From Candidatus Giovannonibacteria bacterium (GTDB taxonomy: Bacteria; Patescibacteriota; Minisyncoccia; JACPKW01; UBA11713), in the NCBI GenBank assembly GCA_016186825.1, contig JACPKW010000004.1, positions 64,428-128,427 on the forward strand: a stretch of 64,000 nucleotides of DNA. The letters are read 5' to 3'. Positions 5,230 through 41,141 of the stretch are shown here, piece after piece. The notes under the pieces were generated by a model. The model made no database searches, was not told where the DNA came from, and saw nothing but the letters and a program-made list of their open reading frames with translations. Each line of letters begins with the position of its first letter. Position 1 is the first letter of the stretch. Made by a program: the position numbers and the translations under genes.

Positions 5230-6375
5230 TCATCTTAATTCGGATGCGAATTGCTTTGATGTTTCACGGTAAATTTCAGACTGAATTTTATCGATTTCTT
5301 CGTTAGTGAGTGTGCGCTCATTCGAGCGGTAAACTATTCTATACGTGTAGCTTGTCTTATCTGCTCCGAATTTTTCAGCGTTTTCGTATTTATCCAAAAG
5401 CGAAACTTCTTCCACTAAATCTCCGCCGAGATCTCTTATTAAGTCGAAATAATTGTTTGGGATGAAGGTGTTTGAAACAATGAATGAGATATCGCGAGTT
5501 ATTGGCGGAAACTTTGAAACTTCTTTGAATTTATTTCCGAGCTTCAGTTGTTTTTTTACCCGCTCGTCTTTTGACCAAAGCAGGCGAATGTCGGGCAGAT
5601 CCATCGAGAGCATAGCGAGACGTTCCAAGCCGAAGCCGAAGGCCCAGCCGGTCCATTTCTCTGGATCAACACCACATTTTTTTAAAACTCTGCCTTTTAC
5701 TACCCCGCAACCATTTCCTTCTATCCATTTATCACCGACTTTGATTTCCATTTCCAAGCTTGGGTCTGTGTAAGGGAAAGTATCTGGATTGAAGCGATAT
5801 TTGACATCGGGACCAAAAACAGCTTTTGCAATACTTCCTAGCACATCCTCTAAATCTCTTTGGCCTATGACTCGTTTGCTCTTAGGCGCCAAGAGCCAGC
5901 CATCAATCTGATGGAAGACATTCATGTGTTGGCGATCAATTTCGTCCTTGCGATAAACTTTGCCGAAAGAAAAGGAACCGACTATCTCCTCTCGCGCCAT
6001 TCTCTCTTTGATTTGTGGATCGTTGAGGTAGTAATACCACATGACAGTCGTGTGTGTGCGCAGGACATGCGCTTCACTCGCGTAATATGTGTCAGATTTC
6101 GAGCGCGCAGGATGATCAGCCGGAAAATCGAACAAATCAAAGCTTACATTCGCAGGAACGATTTCTGGAGCTTCGACAATATCGAAATCTTTAAAATCTT
6201 TAATATTGATTATTTTTCCAACCATATCGGCGAGAGGGGATCCCGGAGTTCTGGTCAAATCGGGCATATTTAAAAAACGCAGCATTCTTTTTGCATCCGC
6301 GTCCGATCTATTTTTGAGAGATTTCACTAACTCTTTTTCCTCGGGCGATTCTATTTTTATGTTCATAATTAACAA
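5230..6375 (-). CDS. pheS: phenylalanine--tRNA ligase, monomeric type (PheS catalytic core + C-terminal FDX-ACB anticodon-binding domain)
   Basis: FPADHPAR, LRTHTT, GWAFGFGLERLAML class II motifs; C-terminal ~100 aa (FPPITRDISFIV...ERTLTNEEI) resembles PheT-type FDX-ACB domain; table start is TTG, likely ATG near 6366. Confidence 0.8.
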   Translation of the reverse strand: MLIMNIKIESPEEKELVKSLKNRSDADAKRMLRFLNMPDLTRTPGSPLADMVGKIINIKDFKDFDIVEAPEIVPANVSFDLFDFPADHPARSKSDTYYASEAHVLRTHTTVMWYYYLNDPQIKERMAREEIVGSFSFGKVYRKDEIDRQHMNVFHQIDGWLLAPKSKRVIGQRDLEDVLGSIAKAVFGPDVKYRFNPDTFPYTDPSLEMEIKVGDKWIEGNGCGVVKGRVLKKCGVDPEKWTGWAFGFGLERLAMLSMDLPDIRLLWSKDERVKKQLKLGNKFKEVSKFPPITRDISFIVSNTFIPNNYFDLIRDLGGDLVEEVSLLDKYENAEKFGADKTSYTYRIVYRSNERTLTNEEIDKIQSEIYRETSKQFASELR

Positions 6376-6543
6376 TTAACAGAATTAAATTTTTTTTTCC
6401 AGTCTTTTTAGAAAAACCATTTATCCCGTTAGAAGTAATACCCGTCGTTTGCGGCGTGGGTTGCCCGTTGGGTCTAACACCCGCAGGGATTCAAATACCC
6501 CGCGGGAATTTCTAACGGGATTCATTTTTAATATAGCACCTGA

Positions 6544-6557
6544 TATGATATATCATA
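6544..6557. promoter_or_regulatory. 14 bp perfect palindrome TATGATATATCATA overlapping regulator start codon (candidate operator)
   Basis: Self-complementary; same core recurs at 7031-7044 and 26561-26574. Confidence 0.5.
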
Positions 6558-6973
6558 CAATGCCGCATGTATCGAAAAGAAAGTTGAAAAAGAAAGTATA
6601 TTCAAAAATTGAGACTAATTTTATTGAAGTGTTTCTTAAATTTCGGTCAAGAAAAGAAACATCTTTATTGTTGAACGATCTTCTGACACGAACTGAAAGA
6701 GTGATGCTCTCAAAGAGAATAGCAATAGTTTTAATGTTGGAAAGTGGATACTCGTTTAGTACGATTGAGCGGACTCTGAAAGTGACAAAACAAACGATTG
6801 TGAGATTCATGAAAATGAGAAAATCTGGGAAATTTAGATACTTGGAGGCTAAAAAGGAAAGTAAGGAAAACGATAGTCTGATCGAATTTTTAGAGAAATT
6901 TCTTCAAGCGGGCCTTCCGCCGCGAGGAAAAGGGAGATGGGCCAGGTTTTATAAAATGGCGAATGATGAATAA
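6545..6973 (+). CDS. TrpR/YerC/YecD-family HTH transcriptional regulator
   Basis: LLTRTERVMLSKRIAIVLMLESGYSFSTIERTLKVTKQTIVR matches TrpR_YerC HTH; table ORF starts at 6449 but that N-terminal extension spans a structured inverted-repeat region; start 6545 (or 6560) overlaps a 14 bp palindrome. Confidence 0.55.
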   Translation: MIYHTMPHVSKRKLKKKVYSKIETNFIEVFLKFRSRKETSLLLNDLLTRTERVMLSKRIAIVLMLESGYSFSTIERTLKVTKQTIVRFMKMRKSGKFRYLEAKKESKENDSLIEFLEKFLQAGLPPRGKGRWARFYKMANDE

Positions 6974-7017
6974 TTTCCGTCTTTATTCACAATCGACTTG
7001 TAAAGTATTAGTTTATT

Positions 7018-7053
7018 TTAATGGCTAGTATGATATATCATACTAGCCATTAA
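7018..7053. repeat. 36 bp perfect palindrome TTAATGGCTAGTATGATATATCATACTAGCCATTAA
   Basis: Exact reverse-complement symmetry; shares core TATGATATATCATA; lies between regulator gene and gyrB. Confidence 0.9.
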
Positions 7054-7162: not shown

Positions 7163-7174
7163 ATGCTATAATTG
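7163..7174 (+). promoter_or_regulatory. extended -10 promoter element (TGcTATAAT) upstream of gyrB
   Basis: TGCTATAATTGG 23 nt upstream of gyrB ATG; no clear -35. Confidence 0.4.
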
Positions 7175-7196: not shown

Positions 7197-9296
7197 ATGG
7201 CCAAAAAAACAGTAAAAATTAAAACCGCCGGCAACGGGGGGAAGGGGGAATCCGTTAATAACCATTCTAACAACTACACCGCGAAAGACATTTATGTTCT
7301 CGAGGGTCTTGAGCCTGTTCGGAAGCGTCCCGGGATGTATATCGGCTCCACCGGGGTTGATGGTCTGCATCACTTGATTTGGGAAGTTTTTGACAACTCG
7401 CTCGATGAGGCGATGGCGGGATATGCCAAAAATATTTTAGTGACTTTGCTTCCGGGAAATAAAGTGCGGGTAGTGGATGATGGACGCGGAATTCCGGTTG
7501 AAACGCATAAACAGACTAAGAAATCAGCTCTTGAGACTGTGATGACGACATTACACGCCGGCGGAAAATTCGGAGGCGAATCTTATAAAGTTTCAGGTGG
7601 TTTGCACGGCGTCGGCGTTTCCGTTGTAAACGCTCTTTCGAAATCTCTAATAGCTGAAGTTTGCCGCGATGGGGAGCGTTGGCAGCAGGAATACGAACGC
7701 GGGAATCCTAAATCCAAAGTAAAAAAAACCGGCTCATGCAAAGGCACTGGAACTGCCATCACGTTCGAACCAGATTCGGAAATTTTTCGAGACATCCGTT
7801 TTAATTGGGATACGATTCTTGAACATTTGCGACAGCAAGCTTATTTGACGGCAGGGGTCCGGATTCAGATCCGCGATGAACGTGAAAAGGAAGAACATTT
7901 GCATAAGTCCTACGCTTTTTGCTTTGAGTCCGGAATAAAATCTTATGTAAAATTTTTAAACCGCAGTCAGAAAAACAAAAACGAAAGTATTTTTTATGCA
8001 TCCAAAGAAACAAACGGCATTTTTGTGGAAGTCGCGCTTCAATATATTGATGACCTGACTGCGCGCGAACTTGCATTTGCAAACAATATTTATAATCAGG
8101 AGGGCGGATCGCATCTCACCGGATTTAGGACCGCTTTGACGCGCGTATTGAATGATTACGCGAGGAAGAACGGATATTTAAAAGATAAAGACGGTTTGAC
8201 GGGTGAAGATGTGCGCGAAGGTTTGACAGCGGTGATTGCAGTTAAAATTGTAAACTCGCAGCTGCAGTTTGAAGGTCAGACAAAATCCAAATTGGGAAAT
8301 CCCGAAGCGAGGGGAGCGGTGGAGAGCGTATTCGGGGAAGCTTTTTCTGCTTTCCTTGAAGAAAATCCGTCCGAGGCGCGCGCTATTTTGGAAAAAGTGA
8401 TTTTGGCGCTCGAGGCGCGCAAAGCCGCGAAAGCCGCAAAAGATACGGTTTTACGAAAAGGAGTTTTGGATGGGCTGACTTTGCCCGGGAAGCTCGCCGA
8501 TTGCCAGTCGCGAAAAGCGGAGGAGTCGGAGATATTCATAGTTGAGGGCGATTCCGCAGGCGGGAGCGCGAAACAGGCAAGGGATCGGAGAACGCAGGCG
8601 ATTTTGCCTTTGCGCGGAAAAATTTTGAATGTGGAGCGCGCGCGTTTGGATAAAATGCTCGCGTCAAAAGAAATTAAGGCATTAATCATAGCGCTTGGAG
8701 CGGCAATCGCAGAAGAACTGGATGTCTCAAAAATCCGCTATCACAAAATAGTTATCATGACTGATGCTGATGTTGACGGCGCTCACATCAGAACTCTTCT
8801 ATTAACTTTGTTTTACAGATACTATCTGCCCGTGATCGAAATGGGTTACTTATACATTGCCCAGCCTCCTTTATATCGCATTTCAAAAGGAAAGGACGTC
8901 AGATATGCCTATTTGGAGGATGAAAAAGAAAAAATAATTAAGGAGCTTGTAAAAATCGCGGAAGCTAAAACCAAAAAAGGAAAGGAAGAAAAAGAAGAGA
9001 ACGAAAATCCGGAAGTTCAGGAAATTGAAACCGAAGGGGAAAATCCGCCAGCCGGAGGACTGCCAGCCGGCGGACGCGGTGTTTCCATTCAGAGATATAA
9101 GGGCCTCGGAGAAATGAATGCGGAACAGCTTTGGGAGACGACAATGGATCCGGGAAAGCGCGTTTTGAAACAGGTTACAATCGAAGATGCGGCGGAAGCT
9201 TCTAAAACTTTCGATATTTTGATGGGCGATGAAGTCGCGCCTCGCAAACTATTTATACAAACACACGCGAGAGCGGTGCAGAATCTGGATATTTAA
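7197..9296 (+). CDS. gyrB: DNA gyrase subunit B
   Basis: GHKL ATPase motifs (GLHHLIWEVFDNSLDEA), Toprim EGDSAGGSAKQARDR, PLRGKILNVE; acidic/Gly-rich insert near C-terminus. Confidence 0.95.
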   Translation: MAKKTVKIKTAGNGGKGESVNNHSNNYTAKDIYVLEGLEPVRKRPGMYIGSTGVDGLHHLIWEVFDNSLDEAMAGYAKNILVTLLPGNKVRVVDDGRGIPVETHKQTKKSALETVMTTLHAGGKFGGESYKVSGGLHGVGVSVVNALSKSLIAEVCRDGERWQQEYERGNPKSKVKKTGSCKGTGTAITFEPDSEIFRDIRFNWDTILEHLRQQAYLTAGVRIQIRDEREKEEHLHKSYAFCFESGIKSYVKFLNRSQKNKNESIFYASKETNGIFVEVALQYIDDLTARELAFANNIYNQEGGSHLTGFRTALTRVLNDYARKNGYLKDKDGLTGEDVREGLTAVIAVKIVNSQLQFEGQTKSKLGNPEARGAVESVFGEAFSAFLEENPSEARAILEKVILALEARKAAKAAKDTVLRKGVLDGLTLPGKLADCQSRKAEESEIFIVEGDSAGGSAKQARDRRTQAILPLRGKILNVERARLDKMLASKEIKALIIALGAAIAEELDVSKIRYHKIVIMTDADVDGAHIRTLLLTLFYRYYLPVIEMGYLYIAQPPLYRISKGKDVRYAYLEDEKEKIIKELVKIAEAKTKKGKEEKEENENPEVQEIETEGENPPAGGLPAGGRGVSIQRYKGLGEMNAEQLWETTMDPGKRVLKQVTIEDAAEASKTFDILMGDEVAPRKLFIQTHARAVQNLDI

Positions 9297-15001: not shown

Positions 15002-15037
15002 GGCCTCATCTTTACGCTATAGCGTAAAGATGAGGCC
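15002..15037. repeat. 36 bp perfect palindrome GGCCTCATCTTTACGCTATAGCGTAAAGATGAGGCC
   Basis: Exact self-complementarity between ThyX-like gene and secD; no U-tract on either side. Confidence 0.9.
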
Positions 15038-24854: not shown

Positions 24855-24883
24855 TTGACATTGGAAGCCGCAGGTGCTATAAT
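24855..24883 (+). promoter_or_regulatory. consensus sigma70 promoter TTGACA-17nt-TGcTATAAT
   Basis: Perfect -35 and -10 hexamers with 17 nt spacer and extended -10 TG. Confidence 0.6.
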
Positions 24884-24889
24884 GCTCCA

Positions 24890-25044
24890 ATAATAAGGAA
24901 TTAAGGCAATTTGAAAACTTTATAGCCCGCCTACGCTAAAGCTACGGCGGACGAAGAGAGAGCGGATCGCAAACACCGTATAGTTTGCAAAAAGGCGATT
25001 TCGCAATCTCTTAATAATGAAGAAAGTGCGAAATCGCCTTTTTT
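24890..25044 (+). ncRNA. candidate ~155 nt small RNA (promoter-to-terminator unit, unknown family)
   Basis: Starts about 7 nt after consensus -10; ends in a perfect 17 bp stem AAAAAGGCGATTTCGCA/TGCGAAATCGCCTTTTT plus T6; no ORF with SD inside. Confidence 0.4.
24989..25044. terminator. bidirectional intrinsic terminator
   Basis: 17 bp perfect stem, 21 nt loop, A-run 5' and T-run 3'. Confidence 0.75.
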
Positions 25045-25108
25045 CATAGTCGAGACGGGAGGAAGATCAAAAATAATTTATAAAGCGAAAAAAGAAAGGA
25101 GGTGATAG

Positions 25109-25264
25109 TGTGTGTCCAAAATGTGGTGGCCTGAATTGCCCTCGATGCGGGAAGTGTCCCGCGGAAGGGGCGGAAAAATGTTTGCGGTGCGGCCAAGACC
25201 TCCGGCCGAAGCCAGTTCCGGAGGCAGAAGTCAGAACGGACGAAATCCATTTCGATTTCTCTGA
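25109..25264 (+). CDS. small ORF (51 aa, GTG start) behind perfect SD, Cys-containing N-terminus CPKCGGLNCP
   Basis: AAAGGAGGTGAT 7 nt upstream of GTG; low-complexity Arg/Gly/Pro-rich remainder; could be non-coding. Confidence 0.2.
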   Translation, partial: CVSKMWWPELPSMREVSRGRGGKMFAVRPRPPAEASSGGRSQNGRNPFRFL

Positions 25265-25569
25265 AGAGTTCGAGTAAATTTCACCGGTCGCGGACGTGAG
25301 GTCGGTGCATCGAAAGATGCAAAGTCTCGGGGTGCTCTCGAGACACGCGTAAAAACAAGCAGAAGGCACTGCTTGCCGAAAAGTTCCGAGGTGCGCTTGG
25401 AACATGCCATATGGGGAGCTTGGAAATATCCAAAAGCTCCCCGCCAAATTTGAGATCTTACTTGGTTAAAAAAAACTGATCGAGCTCTCAAAATTGGTTC
25501 TTCGAAAAAGTTTTTCCTCCGATTTTGTGCGCTGGAGCTCGGCGCATAAAAAATAAAAGGAGGAGAAAA

Positions 25570-25767
25570 ATGGAAAAGATAAAAGTGTTGGGGCGATTGC
25601 CCCTAGAAAAAGTTGGGCGGCGGTTTTTCCCGCTGTCCCAGCCGGTGCCTGCGCACATTTGTGCGCATAATATTGGTCGCGACGCGTACCGCAAATGCGG
25701 GGCGTCGCTAAAAAAAGATGGAGCTTGCCCAAACTCGCGGTTTCACCGCGAGCAAAAGGCAGTCTAA
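25570..25767 (+). CDS. small protein (65 aa) with 4 Cys, strong SD
   Basis: AAAAGGAGGAGAAAAATG; HIC...KCGASLKKDGAC pattern suggests possible metal-binding ribbon. Confidence 0.35.
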   Translation: MEKIKVLGRLPLEKVGRRFFPLSQPVPAHICAHNIGRDAYRKCGASLKKDGACPNSRFHREQKAV

Positions 25768-25818
25768 CCCGCACGCGATGTTATATCGTCGTGCGGCGGA
25801 TTGAAAGGAGGTGAACCA

Positions 25819-25827
25819 ATGTTGTAA
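25819..25827 (+). CDS. 2-codon mini-ORF (ATG TTG TAA) behind perfect SD, followed by two hairpins
   Basis: GAAAGGAGGTGAACCA ATG TTG TAA; hairpins CAAACTCG-AAAA-CGAGTTTG and GGGCAGA...TCTGCCC directly downstream. Confidence 0.25.
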   Translation: ML

Positions 25828-25976
25828 ATATTCAAACTCGAAAACGAGTTTGAGGGCGTGGGCAGAGCCAGATAATCTGCCCCTCAACTAAGTTTTTATC
25901 CCTAGTCTAAGGATTACAATTGGGATGAAAACTTTGAGAGAAAGTTCTTAAAAAAAATAAGAAAGGAGGTGATGAT

Positions 25977-26189
25977 GTGGCGTGGTTCCGATTTTTTTTC
26001 GGAACTCCCCGGAGGTTTCTAACGACACTGGCCTTCGTCGGGCTTGTGTCCGTTATGATATCTCCCGGGTTGCTTCGCACCGCGGTAGAAAGACTGCTTG
26101 CGGAGTTAAATCCGCTGTTGGGGCCGGCGCTGACGATCATGATCGTCTTTGCTGGAATCCGTCTGATCCTTTTCGGTCGGCGGAGATAA
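25977..26189 (+). CDS. small two-TM membrane protein (70 aa, GTG start)
   Basis: GGAGG 7 nt upstream of GTG; two hydrophobic helices (FLTTLAFVGLVSVMISPGLL, LLGPALTIMIVFAGIRLILFG). Confidence 0.35.
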   Translation: MAWFRFFFGTPRRFLTTLAFVGLVSVMISPGLLRTAVERLLAELNPLLGPALTIMIVFAGIRLILFGRRR

Positions 26190-26381
26190 CCCAAGGGGAC
26201 GTCAGCTGGAGACGACTTGTCCAGCTACTCGGATCGCGCCTAGCCGAGGAAAAATAAACGCGATTAACCCAAGGCAACAGCTCAATAACGGGCAAAGCTT
26301 GAATGATAAGTCCTTGGTTCTCCCGCGAAGGCGAGGAGGTAAAAAATAAATCAAGCTTTCGGTTGATTTTAACCGGAGCTT

Positions 26382-26504
26382 TGATCAAAGTTTCTGATCG
26401 TTGAATTAAAAACACTTCGATATATATGTAGTGAGCTCGCCGAACTATCGAAGTAAATACTATGATGCATCATAGTATTAAAATTCGAATGGAAATTTTG
26501 ATGA
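26382..26504. repeat. ~125 bp direct repeat, copy 1 (contains 24 bp palindrome AATACTATGATGCATCATAGTATT)
   Basis: Near-identical to 28439-28568 except a 7 nt internal insertion in copy 2. Confidence 0.85.
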
Positions 26505-26557
26505 AAGCTCTTTAATACTTTCAGATTTTACTAAATTGAAAAATACGGATTTGTTAT

Positions 26558-26575
26558 CGCTATGATATATCATAG
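26558..26575. promoter_or_regulatory. 18 bp palindrome GCTATGATATATCATAGC (same core as 6544 and 7031 sites)
   Basis: Exact self-complementarity; core TATGATATATCATA. Confidence 0.6.
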
Positions 26576-26813
26576 CAATTTGAAAAAAAGAAATTGAGAA
26601 AAAGAAAGCTGGGAAGAATTATGGAGATTTTGAGAGAGATTAAATCCAGGCATTAAATTTATTGGCCTTGGCGGGCAGGGACGGGATCGGATCGGGAAAG
26701 CAGTGCGAGAGTTCGCTAACTGGTGAATTCGAAAACTTTGAGAGGTAAAACAACATCCCAACAAACTGGAGTTTATGAGGATGAGGAAAAGTTCTTTAAT
26801 AAAATTAAGATGC

Positions 26814-27077
26814 TCATCTGTAAATGTCTTTTCGGTGAGCTACACGGAGGAGCTGGATTGTTTTAGGATTAATGAACTGAAAAATAACTCGCCAGTCGCG
26901 AGTTATTCGAAAAGAATAAAGCCCTGAAAGTTTTCCAACCAGTGCTTTTGTGTGCAGTTGTGGATGAAAAACATTTTTTTCCAGAATTTCTGTGAGCTTC
27001 GAAAGTTTTTCTTGTTGATTTCGAGGAAGTCGCGCGGCGCTATCAAGAAATTTTTCAGTGAAAAGTATTCTTATCAT
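26814..27077 (-). CDS. type II toxin, RelE/ParE superfamily (87 aa)
   Basis: C-terminal LSGLYSFRITRDWRVIFQFINPKTIQLLRVAHRKDIY resembles RelE/ParE/YoeB-fold toxins; start overlaps upstream small gene (ATGA). Confidence 0.6.
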   Translation of the reverse strand: MIRILFTEKFLDSAARLPRNQQEKLSKLTEILEKNVFHPQLHTKALVGKLSGLYSFRITRDWRVIFQFINPKTIQLLRVAHRKDIYR

Positions 27078-27298
27078 GAACGCCGACGGCGCAATTCTCC
27101 TAGAAAGGCCTTTCTGCCCTTGAACTTATGCGCTGGTTTTTCTTTGCTTGCTTTGAGCATTTCCTCGACGAATTCAGGCTGGTATTCTCCTTCGGAATCC
27201 TTTCCTGCGATGCCAATCACGAAAGAACGCAGCCGTCTTACTTCCGCTTTGAGGTTTTCCATTTCTTTTGGATAGGCTATGGCCCTGTTCACTTTCAT
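27074..27298 (-). CDS. putative cognate antitoxin (74 aa)
   Basis: Small acidic/basic protein immediately upstream and translationally coupled to toxin gene. Confidence 0.45.
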   Translation of the reverse strand: MKVNRAIAYPKEMENLKAEVRRLRSFVIGIAGKDSEGEYQPEFVEEMLKASKEKPAHKFKGRKAFLGELRRRRS

Positions 27299-27531
27299 AT
27301 TTTAGTATGACGAGATTGATGCGGTCAATGTTTCTTTAAAACCTGTCCTCGGATGTGTATCCGGGCTGATGAGTCGAAAACGACGAAACAGGAAAAAGTT
27401 CTTTTTCAAATAAATTTCTAGCTGCTGTTTTCCTTCGACAAGCTCAGGATAAGTCGTTCTGAATTTGGAATGAAAACGGCAGCCGGAATTCACGAGATCT
27501 GGCTGACTAAAATTTATTGGAGGAAAAGGAA

Positions 27532-27735
27532 ATGGATTTTAGAAAATTCGTGGACACGATGGGTGGAGATGCAGTTCGGAGTCTGGGAAGGGTACCTGAC
27601 TCCACTGAGTCTAGGGAGATGCTAAAACTCAAGGCTGAAGAAGCCTTGGGTAAGAAACTTTCTGGTTACAGGTTTACCGGCAGCATCCTGCGGAGTGAAA
27701 ATCCGCAGGGCTTTGTCGGGATAGTGGCCTGGTAA
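27532..27735 (+). CDS. hypothetical small protein (67 aa from second Met)
   Basis: GGAGGA 8 nt upstream of ATG at 27532; no motif recognised. Confidence 0.3.
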   Translation: MDFRKFVDTMGGDAVRSLGRVPDSTESREMLKLKAEEALGKKLSGYRFTGSILRSENPQGFVGIVAW

Positions 27736-28090
27736 ATAACCTTTGCGGCGGAGGAAATGCAGAATATCGCATTTCCTCCGCCAGCTTCAATTAAGTTTTT
27801 GTCCTGCGTGAAATTGAAGGACGAAAACTTTGAGAGGTTATAATATCATCCTAACAAACTCAAGTTTATAAGGATAAAAAAAGTTCTTTACAAAATGTTT
27901 CTGGCTGTGGTTTTGGTGGCTTTCCCATAATAATATTATTTTGATGGGTTTAAATTAGCCGCCAAAATCGCAGCCGGAAATCTGAAATACATTCGGCTAG
28001 CTTTTCGGAGAGGAAAAAACAAAAAAGGTCAAAGCAGAGGACGAAATTGATTTTTTTGGCTTTATCCCAAAGAAAGGGGGGGGTGGCTTT

Positions 28091-28384
28091 ATGACGTTTG
28101 TGGGCTTGATCGGAGCGGTGTGGGTGCTGCAAATTCCTCTCGGTCTCTTTCTGGTGGGGGTTGCGTTGGTGGGGAGGTTTGAGAGGAAACACCCCACTTG
28201 GGAAGAGCTCTGCCGGGCGAAAGCGGAGGAAAATTTTGCGCGGGAGCGCAAAATTTTGAAGCACGTCGAGCGGTGCTTGACGTGCTCGGAGAGCGAAATA
28301 GGCAGGCATATTAAAGCGAGCCGCGATTTTTTCCAGCGCTGGCTCGCGGCGGACGGAAAACTTCCGCCGGAAGAATGGAGGTGA
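28091..28384 (+). CDS. hypothetical membrane-anchored protein (97 aa)
   Basis: GGGGGG/GGTGG SD-like tract upstream; N-terminal TM helix then charged cytoplasmic domain with CLTC. Confidence 0.35.
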   Translation: MTFVGLIGAVWVLQIPLGLFLVGVALVGRFERKHPTWEELCRAKAEENFARERKILKHVERCLTCSESEIGRHIKASRDFFQRWLAADGKLPPEEWR

Positions 28385-28438
28385 GACCGAATGAAAAAAA
28401 TCAGGCCTTGGCGCGGATATAATCTGCACCAAGGCCCC

Positions 28439-28568
28439 TGATCAAAGTTTCTGATCGTTGAACTAAAAACACTTCGATATTCGATATATATGTAGTGAGC
28501 TCGCCGAACTATCGAAGTAAATACTATGATGCATCATAGTATTAAAATTCGAATGGAAATTTTGATGA
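28439..28568. repeat. ~125 bp direct repeat, copy 2
   Basis: Matches 26382-26504; contains the same 24 bp palindrome at about 28518-28541. Confidence 0.85.
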
Positions 28569-28606: not shown

Positions 28607-28717
28607 ATGAAGTATTTTTTTATGTTTTTGTTGATGGCGGTCTTATTGACCGCCCCGAGCTGTGGGATCGAGAAAGGGGGAGATGATGGGGGTGAGGATG
28701 CCCCCATCGAAACATAA
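28607..28717 (+). CDS. small secreted/lipoprotein-like peptide (36 aa)
   Basis: GAGGAGGA SD; MKYFFMFLLMAVLLTAPSC signal peptide with lipobox-like APSC, acidic Gly-rich tail. Confidence 0.3.
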   Translation: MKYFFMFLLMAVLLTAPSCGIEKGGDDGGEDAPIET

Positions 28718-39712: not shown

Positions 39713-40516
39713 GTGATTTTCAGATATAAATTTTTTCGGATTCCGGTAATTATGCTCGCGCTCGCTTTTTTTGCGCTGGTTTATTTTGTAAGCGCGGGCA
39801 GCGCTGATGATCTTTCAGGGTGGGCTTGGTCTGAAAATATCGGCTGGATCAGTTTTAATTCTGTGAATTTGAATAGGGGCGCGAACTACGGAGTTCGCAT
39901 CAGCAACTCTGGAAATCTTTCAGGTTATGCTTGGTCTGAAAATATCGGCTGGATAAGTTTTAACGAAAATTCCGGATGTCCGAAGTCGCCTTGCGTCCCG
40001 AGATTAAACCGCGACACTGGTGAGGTTTCGGGATGGGCGCGTGCGCTTTCCGCTGATAATAAAGGGTGGGATGGATGGATAAGTTTCCGTGGCTCGGGAT
40101 ACGGCGTTACTGTATCAAACTGCCTTTGGGATGGCTGGGCTTGGGGGTCAGATGTTGTCGGCTGGGTTCATTTCAAAGGAGCTGGATACGGTGTGGCTGC
40201 TAAAGACCAAGGCTGTATCGAAGAGCCTCTGCCACCTCCGCCACCGCCTCTGGTGTGTCCTTCTGGACAAGTGCGCCCGCATCGAACTTGCGAGGACGAG
40301 GTCTGCAAATTGGTTGATTCATGCGGAGTTTCTTCGTGCACTTCATCTTCCGAATGCAAGCCCAAAAAAGTTACCCAATGCTCGGATGGCATTGATAACG
40401 ATGGGGATGCAAAAGTTGATTATCGAACTTCACCGCTTCGTGCGGGACGCCCGAGCGATCCAGGCTGCTCCTCCCTCGAAGACGACAATGAGCGAAATTT
40501 GATTATTGAGATTTGA
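39713..40516 (+). CDS. secreted Trp-rich repeat protein with C-terminal MopE-like Cys/Asp motif; 3' end remodelled by cassette insertion
   Basis: Repeats SGWAWSENIGWISFN x2 plus degenerate copies; CSDGIDNDGDAKVDY...DPGC; the last 8 codons differ from the predicted ancestral end. Confidence 0.5.
   Translation: MIFRYKFFRIPVIMLALAFFALVYFVSAGSADDLSGWAWSENIGWISFNSVNLNRGANYGVRISNSGNLSGYAWSENIGWISFNENSGCPKSPCVPRLNRDTGEVSGWARALSADNKGWDGWISFRGSGYGVTVSNCLWDGWAWGSDVVGWVHFKGAGYGVAAKDQGCIEEPLPPPPPPLVCPSGQVRPHRTCEDEVCKLVDSCGVSSCTSSSECKPKKVTQCSDGIDNDGDAKVDYRTSPLRAGRPSDPGCSSLEDDNERNLIIEI
40446..40491. repeat. 46 bp direct repeat (copy 1) = target-site duplication of HicAB cassette
   Basis: GACGCCCGAGCGATCCAGGCTGCTCCTCCCTCGAAGACGACAATGA, identical at 41096-41141. 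Confidence 0.85.
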
Positions 40517-41095: not shown

Positions 41096-41141
41096 GACGC
41101 CCGAGCGATCCAGGCTGCTCCTCCCTCGAAGACGACAATGA
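41096..41141. repeat. 46 bp direct repeat (copy 2)
   Basis: Identical to 40446-40491; in the host-gene frame this copy continues ...DDNEKF-stop. Confidence 0.85.

What the first reader, a model, noticed from the sequence alone, without database searches (positions are those of the whole stretch)
6544..7053. Palindromic operator family TATGAT-NN-ATCATA associated with a TrpR/YerC-like regulator
A 14 bp perfect palindrome overlaps the regulator's own start codon. A 36 bp perfect palindrome with the same core lies just 3' of the gene, ~150 bp upstream of gyrB. An 18 bp version occurs at 26558, and GC-centre variants (TATGATGCATCATA in 24 bp palindromes) occur in both 125 bp repeats at 26456 and 28518. 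Shared cores with different flanks favour a dimeric DNA-binding protein site over random hairpins. This suggests autoregulation and a small regulon linking the regulator, the gyrB promoter region and the rpoC-proximal island.
Basis: partly seen in the sequence, partly recalled or inferred. Interest (0 to 1): 0.55.

Follow-up and report, generated by a model that had tools for sequence, protein, structure and literature searches.

The report
Self-flanking palindromic operators of a CPR regulator
A small Trp-repressor-like gene in a Giovannonibacteria (candidate phyla radiation) genome sits between two copies of a perfect palindrome that it almost certainly binds, and the same gene-plus-palindrome arrangement recurs widely in this barely studied bacterial group.

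Summary
TATGATNNATCATA occurs 5 times in 64 kb, against 0 expected, at the stated positions.

The gene 6560-6973 is a TrpR-family protein, and the palindromes are its cognate sites. In more than 25 related loci the gene is flanked by one palindrome at its promoter or start and a second just after its stop. When the protein diverges, both palindromes change together; I found seven different cores. The upstream site contains the best predicted -10 (TATCAT) of a nearly leaderless promoter, so autorepression is likely.

The proposed regulon linking gyrB and the rpoC-proximal island is not supported. The 36-bp palindrome belongs to the regulator cassette rather than to gyrB, and the two GC-centre sites are copies of one duplicated 125-bp segment.

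In Patescibacteria genomes and in metagenome contigs (taxonomy not checked), the same core occurs as solo sites. About 85% lie in non-coding DNA, next to unrelated housekeeping genes, and a few lie inside genes.

Two properties were unexpected:
- Sites are perfect or absent, with no degenerate copies.
- The arms stay perfectly symmetric up to 56 bp at positions that show no base preference, and then end abruptly.

This points to DNA-level dyad maintenance (cruciform formation or template-switch copying) on top of protein recognition. No binding has been demonstrated.

The parts
6528..6556 (+). Predicted promoter of the regulator: -35-like TTAATA (6528-6533), 17-bp spacer, -10-like TATCAT (6551-6556, the right half of palindrome A)
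   Evidence: Consensus scan, 9 of 12 matches. The same geometry, with better -35 hexamers (TTGCCA, TTGCAA, TTGGGA), is the top match in 6 of 8 orthologues. Inferred only; no transcription start site data.
6544..6557 (.). Site A: 14-bp perfect palindrome TATGATATATCATA, the upstream (promoter) operator
   Evidence: The orthologous position carries a palindrome 0-10 nt before the ATG in L001, L011, L013, L050, L169, L180, L256 and L259.
6560..6973 (+). TrpR-family DNA-binding protein, 137 aa. The deposited annotation starts at 6545. The conserved C-terminal motif LQAGLPPRGKGRW is not covered by the matches to solved TrpR/HisR-type structures, which end near residue 100.
   Evidence: Pfam PF01371, E 4e-9. 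NCBI hypothetical protein HYW53_01710, Candidatus Giovannonibacteria. AF2 model plus Foldseek. Family profile hits 3520 cluster representatives.
7018..7053 (.). Site B: 36-bp perfect palindrome with the same core, 45 nt after the stop codon. It is the downstream partner site and, in this genome, possibly also a terminator hairpin (tail TTTGAATTTT).
   Evidence: DNA hairpin -14.9 kcal/mol, z -8.4. The downstream partner is conserved with the cognate core in all lineages examined, mostly without a T tract.
7164..7172 (+). gyrB extended -10 (TGcTATAAT). gyrB ORF is 7197-9296.
   Evidence: Read from the sequence. gyrB domains. This shows gyrB has a promoter of its own about 130 bp downstream of site B.
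26382..26504 (+). Copy 1 of the roughly 125-bp direct repeat, containing site D
   Evidence: families D2 and D20.
26456..26479 (.). Site D: 24-bp perfect palindrome AATACTATGATGCATCATAGTATT (GC-centre variant)
   Evidence: The same centre variant lies next to a canonical site in L226.
26559..26576 (.). Site C: 18-bp perfect palindrome GCTATGATATATCATAGC, 100 bp from site D, followed by purine-rich non-coding sequence
28439..28568 (+). Copy 2 of the direct repeat (7-bp insertion relative to copy 1), containing site E, upstream of a small lipoprotein-like ORF (28608-28717)
28520..28543 (.). Site E: identical to site D, present through duplication of the repeat

Best explanation
The TATGAT-NN-ATCATA palindromes are the cognate DNA sites of the TrpR-family protein encoded at 6560-6973. 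The protein, presumably a dimer like TrpR and HisR, recognises a dyad of about 20 bp (extended consensus CAC-TATGATATATCATA-GTG).

Site A lies on the spacer and -10 of the gene's own promoter, which appears nearly leaderless, so occupancy should block RNA polymerase and give negative autoregulation. Site B is the obligatory second site of the same cassette, placed just after the stop codon. I infer that it closes the transcription unit, either as a protein roadblock or as a hairpin, or that it cooperates with site A by looping. I do not think it controls gyrB.

Sites C and D/E are further members of the same site family, and their target genes are unclear.

Superimposed on protein recognition, the arms of each site are kept perfectly symmetric at the DNA level. 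The most likely cause is hairpin-templated (template-switch) copying between arms, or a requirement for cruciform formation.

Shown by sequence: the sites, the protein family, the conserved flanking arrangement, covariation of protein and site, and excess arm symmetry. Inferred: binding, repression, the role of site B, and the symmetrising mechanism.
For: 1. The sites are non-random in the window.

2. The protein is TrpR-family by sequence and by predicted fold. Known family members bind 20-bp palindromes and often autoregulate: TrpR, and HisR (B. subtilis YerC) with consensus cacTTTAn6TAAAgtg (PMC9413887).

3. The gene is flanked by two copies of a palindrome in every lineage for which both flanks were available. 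These are the window; P0003 in 10 contigs; P0005; L050 and L063; 15 metagenome loci with pairs mostly 430-540 bp apart (L211: 316 bp); and P0013, P0014, P0016 and P0018, P0021, P0002, P0020.

4. Both copies change together with the protein. The seven cores are TATGATATATCATA; TATCATATATGATA (P0002); ACGATATATCGT (P0016 and P0018, both with helix SPST); TACGGTTAACCGTA (P0021); ACAGTATACTGT (P0014); TACTACGATATACTGTAGTA (P0020); and TACTACAATACA..TGTATTGTAGTA (P0015). Within the MPHVS subfamily the recognition-helix residue tracks the core: Q, F, S, V and T.

5. The best sigma-70-like promoter in 6 of 8 orthologues uses the palindrome's TATCAT as the -10 with a 17-bp spacer. The -10 ends 3-10 nt before the ATG and there is no Shine-Dalgarno sequence. 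L012 has TTGACG-17-TATACT centred on its own palindrome.

6. The downstream sites are not generic terminators. They carry the cognate core, and the orthologues' downstream sites mostly lack a T tract by inspection. Across the wider site family, 59% of sites have no T tract on either side.

7. Arm symmetry exceeds what sequence preference explains: +2, 85% against 50% expected; +3, 74% against 40%; +4, 58% against 25%. Arms differ between the two sites that flank a single gene (L178, L179, L137, L197 and the window). There is no G-T tolerance, and the edges are abrupt: after the first mismatch, the next 6 pairs match at the chance rate.
Against: - No experimental binding or expression data exist.
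- In this window the TATCAT hexamer ends only 3 nt before ATG 6560, too close for a start site at the A. The alternative is TATGAT with -35 TTCATT.
- A second subfamily, adjacent to recG and with helix GVGPDTIYRV, is flanked by the same TATGAT core. A one-residue recognition code therefore does not hold family-wide.
- Solo sites show no coherent regulon. They more often face gene 3' ends (72) than 5' ends (48), and they often lie upstream of the neighbouring gene's own promoter. About 15% lie inside conserved genes.
- Sites are all-or-none: 143 perfect, 5 with one mismatch against 3.5 expected by chance. This is unusual for an ordinary operator set.
Confidence: 0.7

Rival explanations
1. The palindromes act mainly as structural or insulating sites rather than as a regulon. 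The protein would be an abundant site-specific DNA binder, comparable to ParB-parS, Noc-NBS or a roadblock terminator. It would mark intergenic boundaries or organise the chromosome, with its own gene simply carrying two of the sites.
For: - Site density is roughly one per 30-60 kb in the retrieved loci.
- About 85% of sites lie in the roughly 20% of DNA that is non-coding, in any kind of intergenic region: 42 tandem, 12 convergent, 7 divergent.
- Neighbouring genes are unrelated housekeeping genes.
- There is a bias towards gene 3' ends, 72 against 48.
- Sites often lie upstream of the next gene's own promoter.
- Sites inside conserved genes arose by substitution, not insertion.
- Conservation is perfect or nothing.
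- Clusters occur near the gene: L063 has 8 sites in 900 bp; L050 has a third site.
- The gene neighbours gyrB in subfamily 1 and recG in subfamily 2.
Against: - No complete genome was available to show the chromosome-wide distribution.
- No partner ATPase or other machinery was seen.
- The promoter overlap at the regulator gene is classical repressor logic and is compatible with both views.
- The 3'-end bias is modest.
Confidence: 0.3
2. The palindromes are RNA-level hairpins, either intrinsic or bidirectional terminators or mRNA stabilisers. Their association with the regulator gene would then be incidental.
For: - Site B scores as terminator-like: 16-bp stem with tail TTTGAATTTT.
- Long perfect terminator stems do exist in this genome (346-379 and 13130-13160).
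- Some family members carry A-tract/T-tract outer arms, for example L189, L163 and L254.
- T tracts are mildly enriched: 23% per side against 14% in controls.
Against: - 59% of sites have no T tract on either side.
- The upstream copy sits on the promoter or start codon, not at a 3' end.
- The core co-varies with the adjacent protein.
- The centre of the dyad, which would be the loop in RNA, is conserved.
- G-U pairs are not tolerated: G-T is the first mismatch in 27 of 132 sites, about the chance rate, with no continuation of pairing afterwards.
- The orthologues' downstream sites mostly lack T runs, by inspection.
Confidence: 0.1
3. The gene plus its palindromes is a selfish or mobile unit, like REP/RAYT elements or a MITE with a domesticated transposase DNA-binding domain. 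The solo palindromes would then be its dispersed copies.
For: - The gene is flanked on both sides by the repeat that is dispersed elsewhere.
- In P0020 the two flanking copies are reverse complements of each other.
- There is weak HTH similarity to IS630/IS1 transposases and invertases (P0016 against IS630, E 1.3e-4).
- The copies are near-identical ('digital').
- The cassette sits in different genomic contexts: an r-protein operon in L013, hyp genes in L012.
Against: - The protein has no catalytic domain (137 aa, an HTH plus a basic tail).
- Only the core is shared between copies. The flanks are locus-specific, and no target-site duplications are seen.
- Sites inside genes cause no length change relative to a homologue that lacks them.
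- The synteny pheS - regulator - gyrB is stable across about 60%-identity orthologues.
- There is only 1 hit in 2.9 million viral contigs.
Confidence: 0.07

Closest known systems
HisR (B. subtilis YerC) and TrpR: TrpR-family repressors with 20-bp palindromic operators (PMC9413887)
   Same: - Same Pfam family and same predicted fold.
- Operator of about 20 bp with dyad symmetry, with similar outer positions (cac...gtg).
- A site at the regulator's own promoter.
- Lineage-specific operator consensus that tracks protein phylogeny.
   Different: - The protein fails the YerC/YecD equivalog model (23.7 against a cut-off of 42.2).
- It is 130-145 aa rather than under 100 aa, with a conserved C-terminal LPPRGKGRW tail.
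- The core sequence is different.
- No his or trp genes lie nearby.
- A second site after the stop codon is the rule.
- Sites are perfect, with arms symmetric beyond 20 bp.
- Solo sites are scattered next to unrelated genes and occur inside genes.
Quasipalindrome template-switch mutagenesis and homogenisation of inverted-repeat arms (PMC7202029, PMC3820800, PMC8604942); coding palindromes in Nematomorpha mitochondria (PMC6649704)
   Same: - Perfect arm identity with abrupt ends.
- Arms extended at positions that have no sequence preference.
- Multi-nucleotide replacement inside coding regions without length change.
- One case (P0020) in which the two copies differ by inversion of an asymmetric centre.
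   Different: - Here the process would be focused on the binding sites of a specific protein family, across a whole bacterial superphylum.
- The mechanism was not tested here.
ParB-parS and Noc-NBS type chromosomal site families
   Same: - Short perfect palindromes.
- A few to tens of sites per genome.
- Sites tolerated inside genes.
- Sites clustered at or near the binding protein's own gene.
   Different: - The protein fold is different.
- No partner NTPase is present.
- Chromosome-wide placement is unknown.
REP elements flanking RAYT transposase genes
   Same: A gene bracketed by the palindromic repeat that is also dispersed in intergenic regions.
   Different: - No transposase domain.
- Only a 14-20-bp core is shared between copies.
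- Tens of copies per genome rather than hundreds.

Membership tests
TrpR family (Pfam PF01371) | Sequence match above the curated threshold | tested here: met
   36.9 bits against a gathering score of 27, E 4e-9, residues 20-94.
TrpR family (Pfam PF01371) | TrpR-like all-helical fold with an HTH | tested here: met
   AF2 model with mean pLDDT 78.5, and 86-97 over residues 11-90. Top Foldseek matches are 3kor, 3frw, 3g1c and E. coli TrpR, with target TM-scores of 0.63-0.82 for the top five and down to 0.56 for some E. coli TrpR chains. This is a predicted structure only.
TrpR family (Pfam PF01371) | Palindromic operator of about 18-20 bp, often at the regulator's own promoter | tested here: met
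   In silico only. The extended consensus is CAC-TATGATATATCATA-GTG. The site overlaps the predicted -10 of the regulator's own promoter. Comparison with PMC9413887.
TrpR family (Pfam PF01371) | Dimeric binding controlled by a small-molecule co-repressor | not testable with these tools
   No ligand or oligomer information. The effector-binding residues of TrpR and HisR were not examined.
YerC/YecD = HisR (NCBIfam TIGR02531) | Score above the equivalog cut-off | tested here: not met
   23.7 bits against a cut-off of 42.2. P0014 scores 21.7 and P0016 scores 16.2.
YerC/YecD = HisR (NCBIfam TIGR02531) | Operator cacTTTAn6TAAAgtg upstream of histidine biosynthesis or transport genes; protein under 100 aa | tested here: not met
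   The core is TATGAT-ATAT-CATA. No his genes are among 45 site-adjacent genes or among the regulator's neighbours. The protein is 137 aa.
Intrinsic (rho-independent) terminator | G+C-rich hairpin followed directly by a U tract | tested here: inconclusive
   Site B meets the scan's criteria. The orthologous downstream sites mostly lack T runs by inspection. Across the family, 59% of sites have no T tract on either side.
REP/RAYT or MITE-like mobile palindrome | Associated transposase with a catalytic domain; copies arise by insertion | tested here: not met
   Only HTH matches were found. The in-gene site in L070 PheT aligns without a gap to L119 PheT, which lacks it.
ParB-parS-like partition site | Adjacent partition NTPase; sites clustered around the origin | not tested
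   No ParA or ParM gene was seen next to the regulators. No complete genome was available for site mapping.

The most novel reading that the evidence does not exclude
Patescibacteria may carry a superphylum-wide system of orthogonal pairs, each made of a TrpR-like protein and its own perfect palindrome. Each gene is bracketed by its own site, and the sites do not act as classical metabolite-responsive operators. Instead they would be cruciform-prone boundary or roadblock elements. Their arms would be continually re-symmetrised by hairpin-templated copying, possibly triggered by replication stalling at the bound protein. The system would be functionally tied to DNA topology and branched-DNA processing, given the conserved adjacency to gyrB in one subfamily and recG in another.
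Probability: 0.2. Interest if true: 0.8.

Novelty: new variant of a known kind. Interest (0 to 1): 0.62.

Why it matters
Almost nothing is known about transcriptional control or chromosome organisation in candidate phyla radiation bacteria, which are mostly uncultured.

This finding gives a concrete, testable protein-DNA pair. The family is large: 3520 cluster representatives match its profile. Its recognition code can be read directly from natural covariation, with seven cores and matching changes in the recognition helix. That makes it suitable for DAP-seq or EMSA with synthetic genes. It could also supply orthogonal repressor-operator parts.

Two properties suggest a DNA-level symmetrising process acting at protein-bound palindromes: the all-or-none conservation of sites, and the perfectly symmetric, abruptly ending arms, which include in-place palindromes inside housekeeping genes. 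If confirmed, this would be a natural, genome-wide case of template-switch homogenisation shaping regulatory DNA.

Tried and rejected
- **Rfam.** At gathering thresholds over the whole window, only two tRNAs were found. With permissive E-values around the sites, the palindromes produced only spurious miRNA-like hits.
- **Terminator hypothesis.** I tested for T tracts outside and inside the arms and by orthologue comparison. It is rejected as a general explanation and kept as a possible side role for site B.
- **RNA-hairpin selection.** I tested for G-T tolerance and for pairing that continues after the first mismatch. Rejected.
- **Pooling artefact.** Arm symmetry could have come from pooling genomes whose regulators differ in specificity. 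Rejected, because the two sites flanking a single gene have different arms that are each symmetric.
- **Insertion of a mobile palindrome into genes.** Rejected by the ungapped PheT alignment.
- **'MIYH' reading-frame bias of in-gene sites.** Explained trivially: CTATGA and TCATAG place stop codons in the other two frames.
- **Coherent regulon.** Pfam annotation of 45 site-adjacent genes found no recurrent function.
- **Phage origin.** Only 1 hit in the viral contigs.
- **Single-residue recognition code across the whole family.** Fails for the recG-linked subfamily.
- **Literature.** A search for the motif string found only unrelated primer-like matches. No paper links CPR bacteria with TrpR-like regulators.
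- **Genome-wide site counts for this organism.** Not obtainable. The contig is 256,829 bp, but only the window and ±10-kb look-ups were available.
Full report
**Observation**

The pattern TATGATNNATCATA occurs five times in the window: 6544, 7029, 26461, 26561 and 28525. None is expected in dinucleotide shuffles. The shorter ATGATNNATCAT gives the same five against 0.14 expected. Allowing two mismatches adds no further site, although chance alone predicts 2.5.

The sites are perfect zero-spacer palindromes of the following lengths:
- 6544-6557: 14 bp
- 7018-7053: 36 bp
- 26456-26479: 24 bp
- 26559-26576: 18 bp
- 28520-28543: 24 bp

The two GC-centre sites lie in direct repeats at 26382-26504 and 28439-28568, which are 98-100% identical apart from a 7-bp indel. 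They are copies of one another, so the window holds four independent sites.

**The gene**

ORF 6560-6973 (+) matches Pfam Trp_repressor above threshold (36.9 bits against 27). It is the NCBI hypothetical protein HYW53_01710 of a Candidatus Giovannonibacteria MAG, on a 256,829-bp contig.

An AlphaFold model (pLDDT 86-97 over residues 11-90) finds the TrpR-like structures 3kor, 3frw and 3g1c, and E. coli TrpR, as its best matches.

The protein fails the NCBIfam YerC/YecD equivalog, scoring 23.7 against 42.2. It also carries a conserved C-terminal LQAGLPPRGKGRW tail that lies beyond the region matched by the solved TrpR/HisR-type structures. It is therefore a TrpR-family protein but not a YerC/HisR orthologue.

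A profile of 17 homologues hits 3520 cluster representatives at E ≤ 1e-3 and 146 at E ≤ 1e-30. The 150 best-scoring hits, the only ones listed, are nearly all 130-145 aa.

The family N-terminus MPHVS is nearly invariant. The true start is therefore ATG 6560, not the deposited ATG 6545 that lies inside the palindrome.

**Comparative evidence that the palindromes belong to the gene**

Orthologues at about 60% identity keep the order pheS/pheT - regulator - (small convergent gene) - gyrB. These are P0003 in ten contigs from different samples, and P0005. Each has one palindrome abutting ATGCCGCATG and another 15-60 nt after the stop:
- L001: ACTGTTATGATATATCATAACAGT and ATCGTTATGATATATCATAACGAT
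- L011: TTTTGTGATGATATATCATAACAAAA and TGTGATGATATATCATCACA

The same bracketing is seen in:
- L050, a Giovannonibacteria genome
- L063, a Paceibacterota genome
- 15 metagenome loci, where the two sites are mostly 430-540 bp apart (L211: 316 bp)

More divergent homologues are bracketed by different palindromes, and in each case both copies carry the same new core:

| Protein | Flanking palindrome core |
|---|---|
| P0016, P0018 | ACGATATATCGT |
| P0021 | AAATAGTACGGTTAACCGTACTATTT |
| P0014 | CACTACAGTATACTGTAGTG |
| P0002 | CCACTATCATATATGATAGTGG (a symmetric G-to-C swap) |
| P0020 | TACTACGATATACTGTAGTA, with its reverse complement on the other side |
| P0015 | TACTACAATACA-tcgc-TGTATTGTAGTA (downstream copy only) |

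Within the MPHVS subfamily, one recognition-helix position tracks the core:
- Q with TATGAT
- F with TATCAT
- S with ACGAT
- V with ACAGT
- T with the P0020 type

A second subfamily (helix GVGPDTIYRV) sits next to recG in five loci and uses the same TATGAT core. The one-residue code is therefore not universal.

This pattern matches what is known for the family. HisR (B. subtilis YerC) and TrpR bind 20-bp palindromes with lineage-specific consensus sequences, and they often autoregulate (PMC9413887).

**Mechanism at the regulator gene**

In 6 of 8 MPHVS-type orthologues, the best sigma-70-like match upstream of the gene has these features:
- The palindrome's right half, TATCAT, serves as the -10.
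- The spacer is 17 bp.
- The -35 hexamers are TTGCCA, TTGCAA, TTGGGA and, in the window, TTAATA (6528-6533).
- The -10 ends 3-10 nt before the ATG.
- There is no Shine-Dalgarno sequence.

L012 has TTGACG-17-TATACT centred on its own palindrome.

I infer a leaderless or nearly leaderless transcript whose core promoter is the operator itself, and therefore autorepression by occlusion. In the window the 3-nt distance is too short for a start at the A of the ATG. The alternative TATGAT/TTCATT pair would give a leader of 3-4 nt. Either way the promoter lies within the site.

**Site B and gyrB**

Site B scores as terminator-like here (16-bp stem, tail TTTGAATTTT), and long perfect terminator stems do exist in this genome. 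However, the orthologous downstream sites carry the cognate core and mostly lack T runs.

In L001 and L011, site B's counterpart lies between convergent genes and is separated from gyrB. In the window, gyrB has its own TGcTATAAT at 7164-7172, about 130 bp downstream of the palindrome centre.

Site B is therefore the second site of the regulator cassette. A role as a gyrB operator is not supported.

**The wider site family**

Sixteen are Patescibacteria. In those, 22 of 25 sites are embedded in perfect palindromes of 18-38 bp. Among the 105 sites in other taxa, 65 show no extension at all.

The taxonomy of these contigs was not checked. Palindromes reach 56 bp.

Position relative to genes:
- About 85% of sites lie in the roughly 20% of DNA that is non-coding.
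- Intergenic regions of all kinds are used: 42 tandem, 12 convergent, 7 divergent.
- Sites face gene 3' ends somewhat more often than 5' ends (72 against 48).

Genes whose 5' ends face a site are unrelated housekeeping genes, including RuvA, RuvC, LigA, ClpP, DHFR, DnaG, RF, L11 and GreA. Many of them have their own promoter between the palindrome and the ATG.

Some sites lie inside conserved genes such as miaA, uvrC, pheT, murI and ychF. The PheT comparison shows that such a site replaces sequence without any change in length.

Only one hit was found in 2.9 million viral contigs.

**Two unexpected properties**

*The family is all-or-none.* In 730 kb there are 143 perfect sites. Only 5 have one mismatch (3.5 expected by chance) and 40 have two mismatches (43.7 expected).

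*The arms are symmetric beyond what sequence preference explains.* Counting outward from the 14-bp core, symmetric pairs make up the following fractions, falling to background by +9:

| Position | Observed | Expected |
|---|---|---|
| +2 | 85% | 50% |
| +3 | 74% | 40% |
| +4 | 58% | 25% |
| +5 | 52% | 33% |

Further features of the arms:
- Arms differ between sites of one genome, and even between the two sites bracketing one gene, yet each is perfectly symmetric. Pooling genomes with different regulator specificities therefore cannot explain the symmetry.
- Palindrome length follows a roughly geometric distribution. The chance of continuing is about 0.78 per pair, against 0.25 for random sequence.
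- After the first mismatch, the next six pairs match exactly at the chance rate. G-T mismatches are neither enriched nor followed by further pairing.

This rules out RNA-level selection and decay of old long repeats. It points to a DNA-level process or constraint. The candidates are a requirement for cruciform formation, or hairpin-templated (template-switch) copying between arms. Template switching is known to perfect and extend quasipalindromes and to homogenise repeat arms, including inside coding sequence (PMC7202029, PMC3820800, PMC8604942).

Other long perfect palindromes with other cores exist in the same contigs and in the window, for example at 15002-15037. Some of them match the cores of other regulator paralogues. 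Which explanation applies was not tested.

**Verdict**

Identifying the palindromes as sites of a dimeric TrpR-like protein, with autoregulation, is well supported by covariation and promoter geometry, but no binding has been demonstrated. The proposed small regulon joining gyrB and the rpoC-proximal island is not supported.

What is really there is one instance of a widespread, undescribed cassette: a TrpR-family gene bracketed by its own perfect palindrome. It is recorded in named Patescibacteria genomes and in metagenome contigs of unchecked taxonomy. Solo copies of the site have an unresolved role as operator, roadblock or insulator, or structural site.

I rate it a new variant of a known kind, with moderately high interest.

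Noticed in passing
window 27340-27394 (+): Candidate type III hammerhead ribozyme: 39.9 bits (gathering score 48.5), E 1.4e-7, full-length match with an intact CUGAUGAG...GAAAC core and GUC cleavage site. It lies inside the 2-kb segment bounded by the 125-bp direct repeats.
   Followed up: partly
window 26382-28568: The two 125-bp direct repeats bracket about 2 kb. This segment holds a ParE-family toxin (26814-27077, -), a DUF2683 protein (27074-27298, -), the hammerhead candidate and two small ORFs. It looks like a duplicated or mobile cassette.
   Followed up: partly
window 6423-6521: G+C-rich structured element between pheS and the regulator: a 14-bp closing stem around three short hairpins (RNA fold -46.5 kcal/mol, z -3.2). 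It has no Rfam match even at permissive E-values. Strand and function are unknown.
   Followed up: partly
window 5230-6375 (-): pheS is the single-chain type carrying a C-terminal FDX-ACB domain, as in mitochondrial PheRS. The same form is found in L001-L010. The related contig L011 instead has a conventional pheS plus pheT.
   Followed up: no
window 15002-15037: A second 36-bp perfect zero-spacer palindrome with an unrelated core, GGCCTCATCTTTACGCTATAGCGTAAAGATGAGGCC (DNA hairpin -19.3 kcal/mol, z -10.8), in an intergenic region. A similar GCTATAGC-centred 48-bp palindrome occurs in L212 and L220.
   Followed up: partly
window 24855-24883 and 24900-26200: A perfect consensus promoter (TTGACA-17-TGcTATAAT) follows rpoC. 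Downstream lies a string of small ORFs, each preceded by a strong Shine-Dalgarno sequence: a 55-aa zinc ribbon, a 65-aa protein and a roughly 70-aa membrane protein. None has a confident Pfam match; the only hit is a sub-threshold zinc-ribbon match (20.6 bits against a cut-off of 27).
   Followed up: partly
L063 4300-5200: Eight palindromes (seven canonical, plus one TATGACATGTCATA variant) lie in a 900-bp purine-rich stretch with no convincing ORF, just upstream of the regulator gene. Spacing is 100-250 bp. Purine-rich sequence also follows site C in the window and sites in L050, L060 and L170.
   Followed up: partly
L186, L249, L235, L137, L063: A second TrpR-like subfamily (helix GVGPDTIYRV), flanked by the same TATGAT core, is adjacent to recG in five loci. 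The MPHVS subfamily is adjacent to gyrB in the window, L001-L011 and L211.
   Followed up: partly
L013 25-432 and the related JGI contig: In this lineage the regulator cassette sits inside the ribosomal-protein operon, between rplE and rpsH, where rpsN usually lies. A 254-aa ORF with no Pfam match follows it.
   Followed up: no
L260 about 1440-1460 and 1960-1985: The P0020 regulator is flanked by a dyad with an asymmetric centre (TACTACGATATACTGTAGTA). The downstream copy is the exact reverse complement of the upstream copy, which shows that the two flanking sites are in inverted orientation.
   Followed up: no
window 40446-40491 and 41096-41141: A 46-nt direct repeat at 100% identity, 650 bp apart. 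Also an 85%-identical 61-nt repeat at 39798-39858 and 39903-39963.
   Followed up: no
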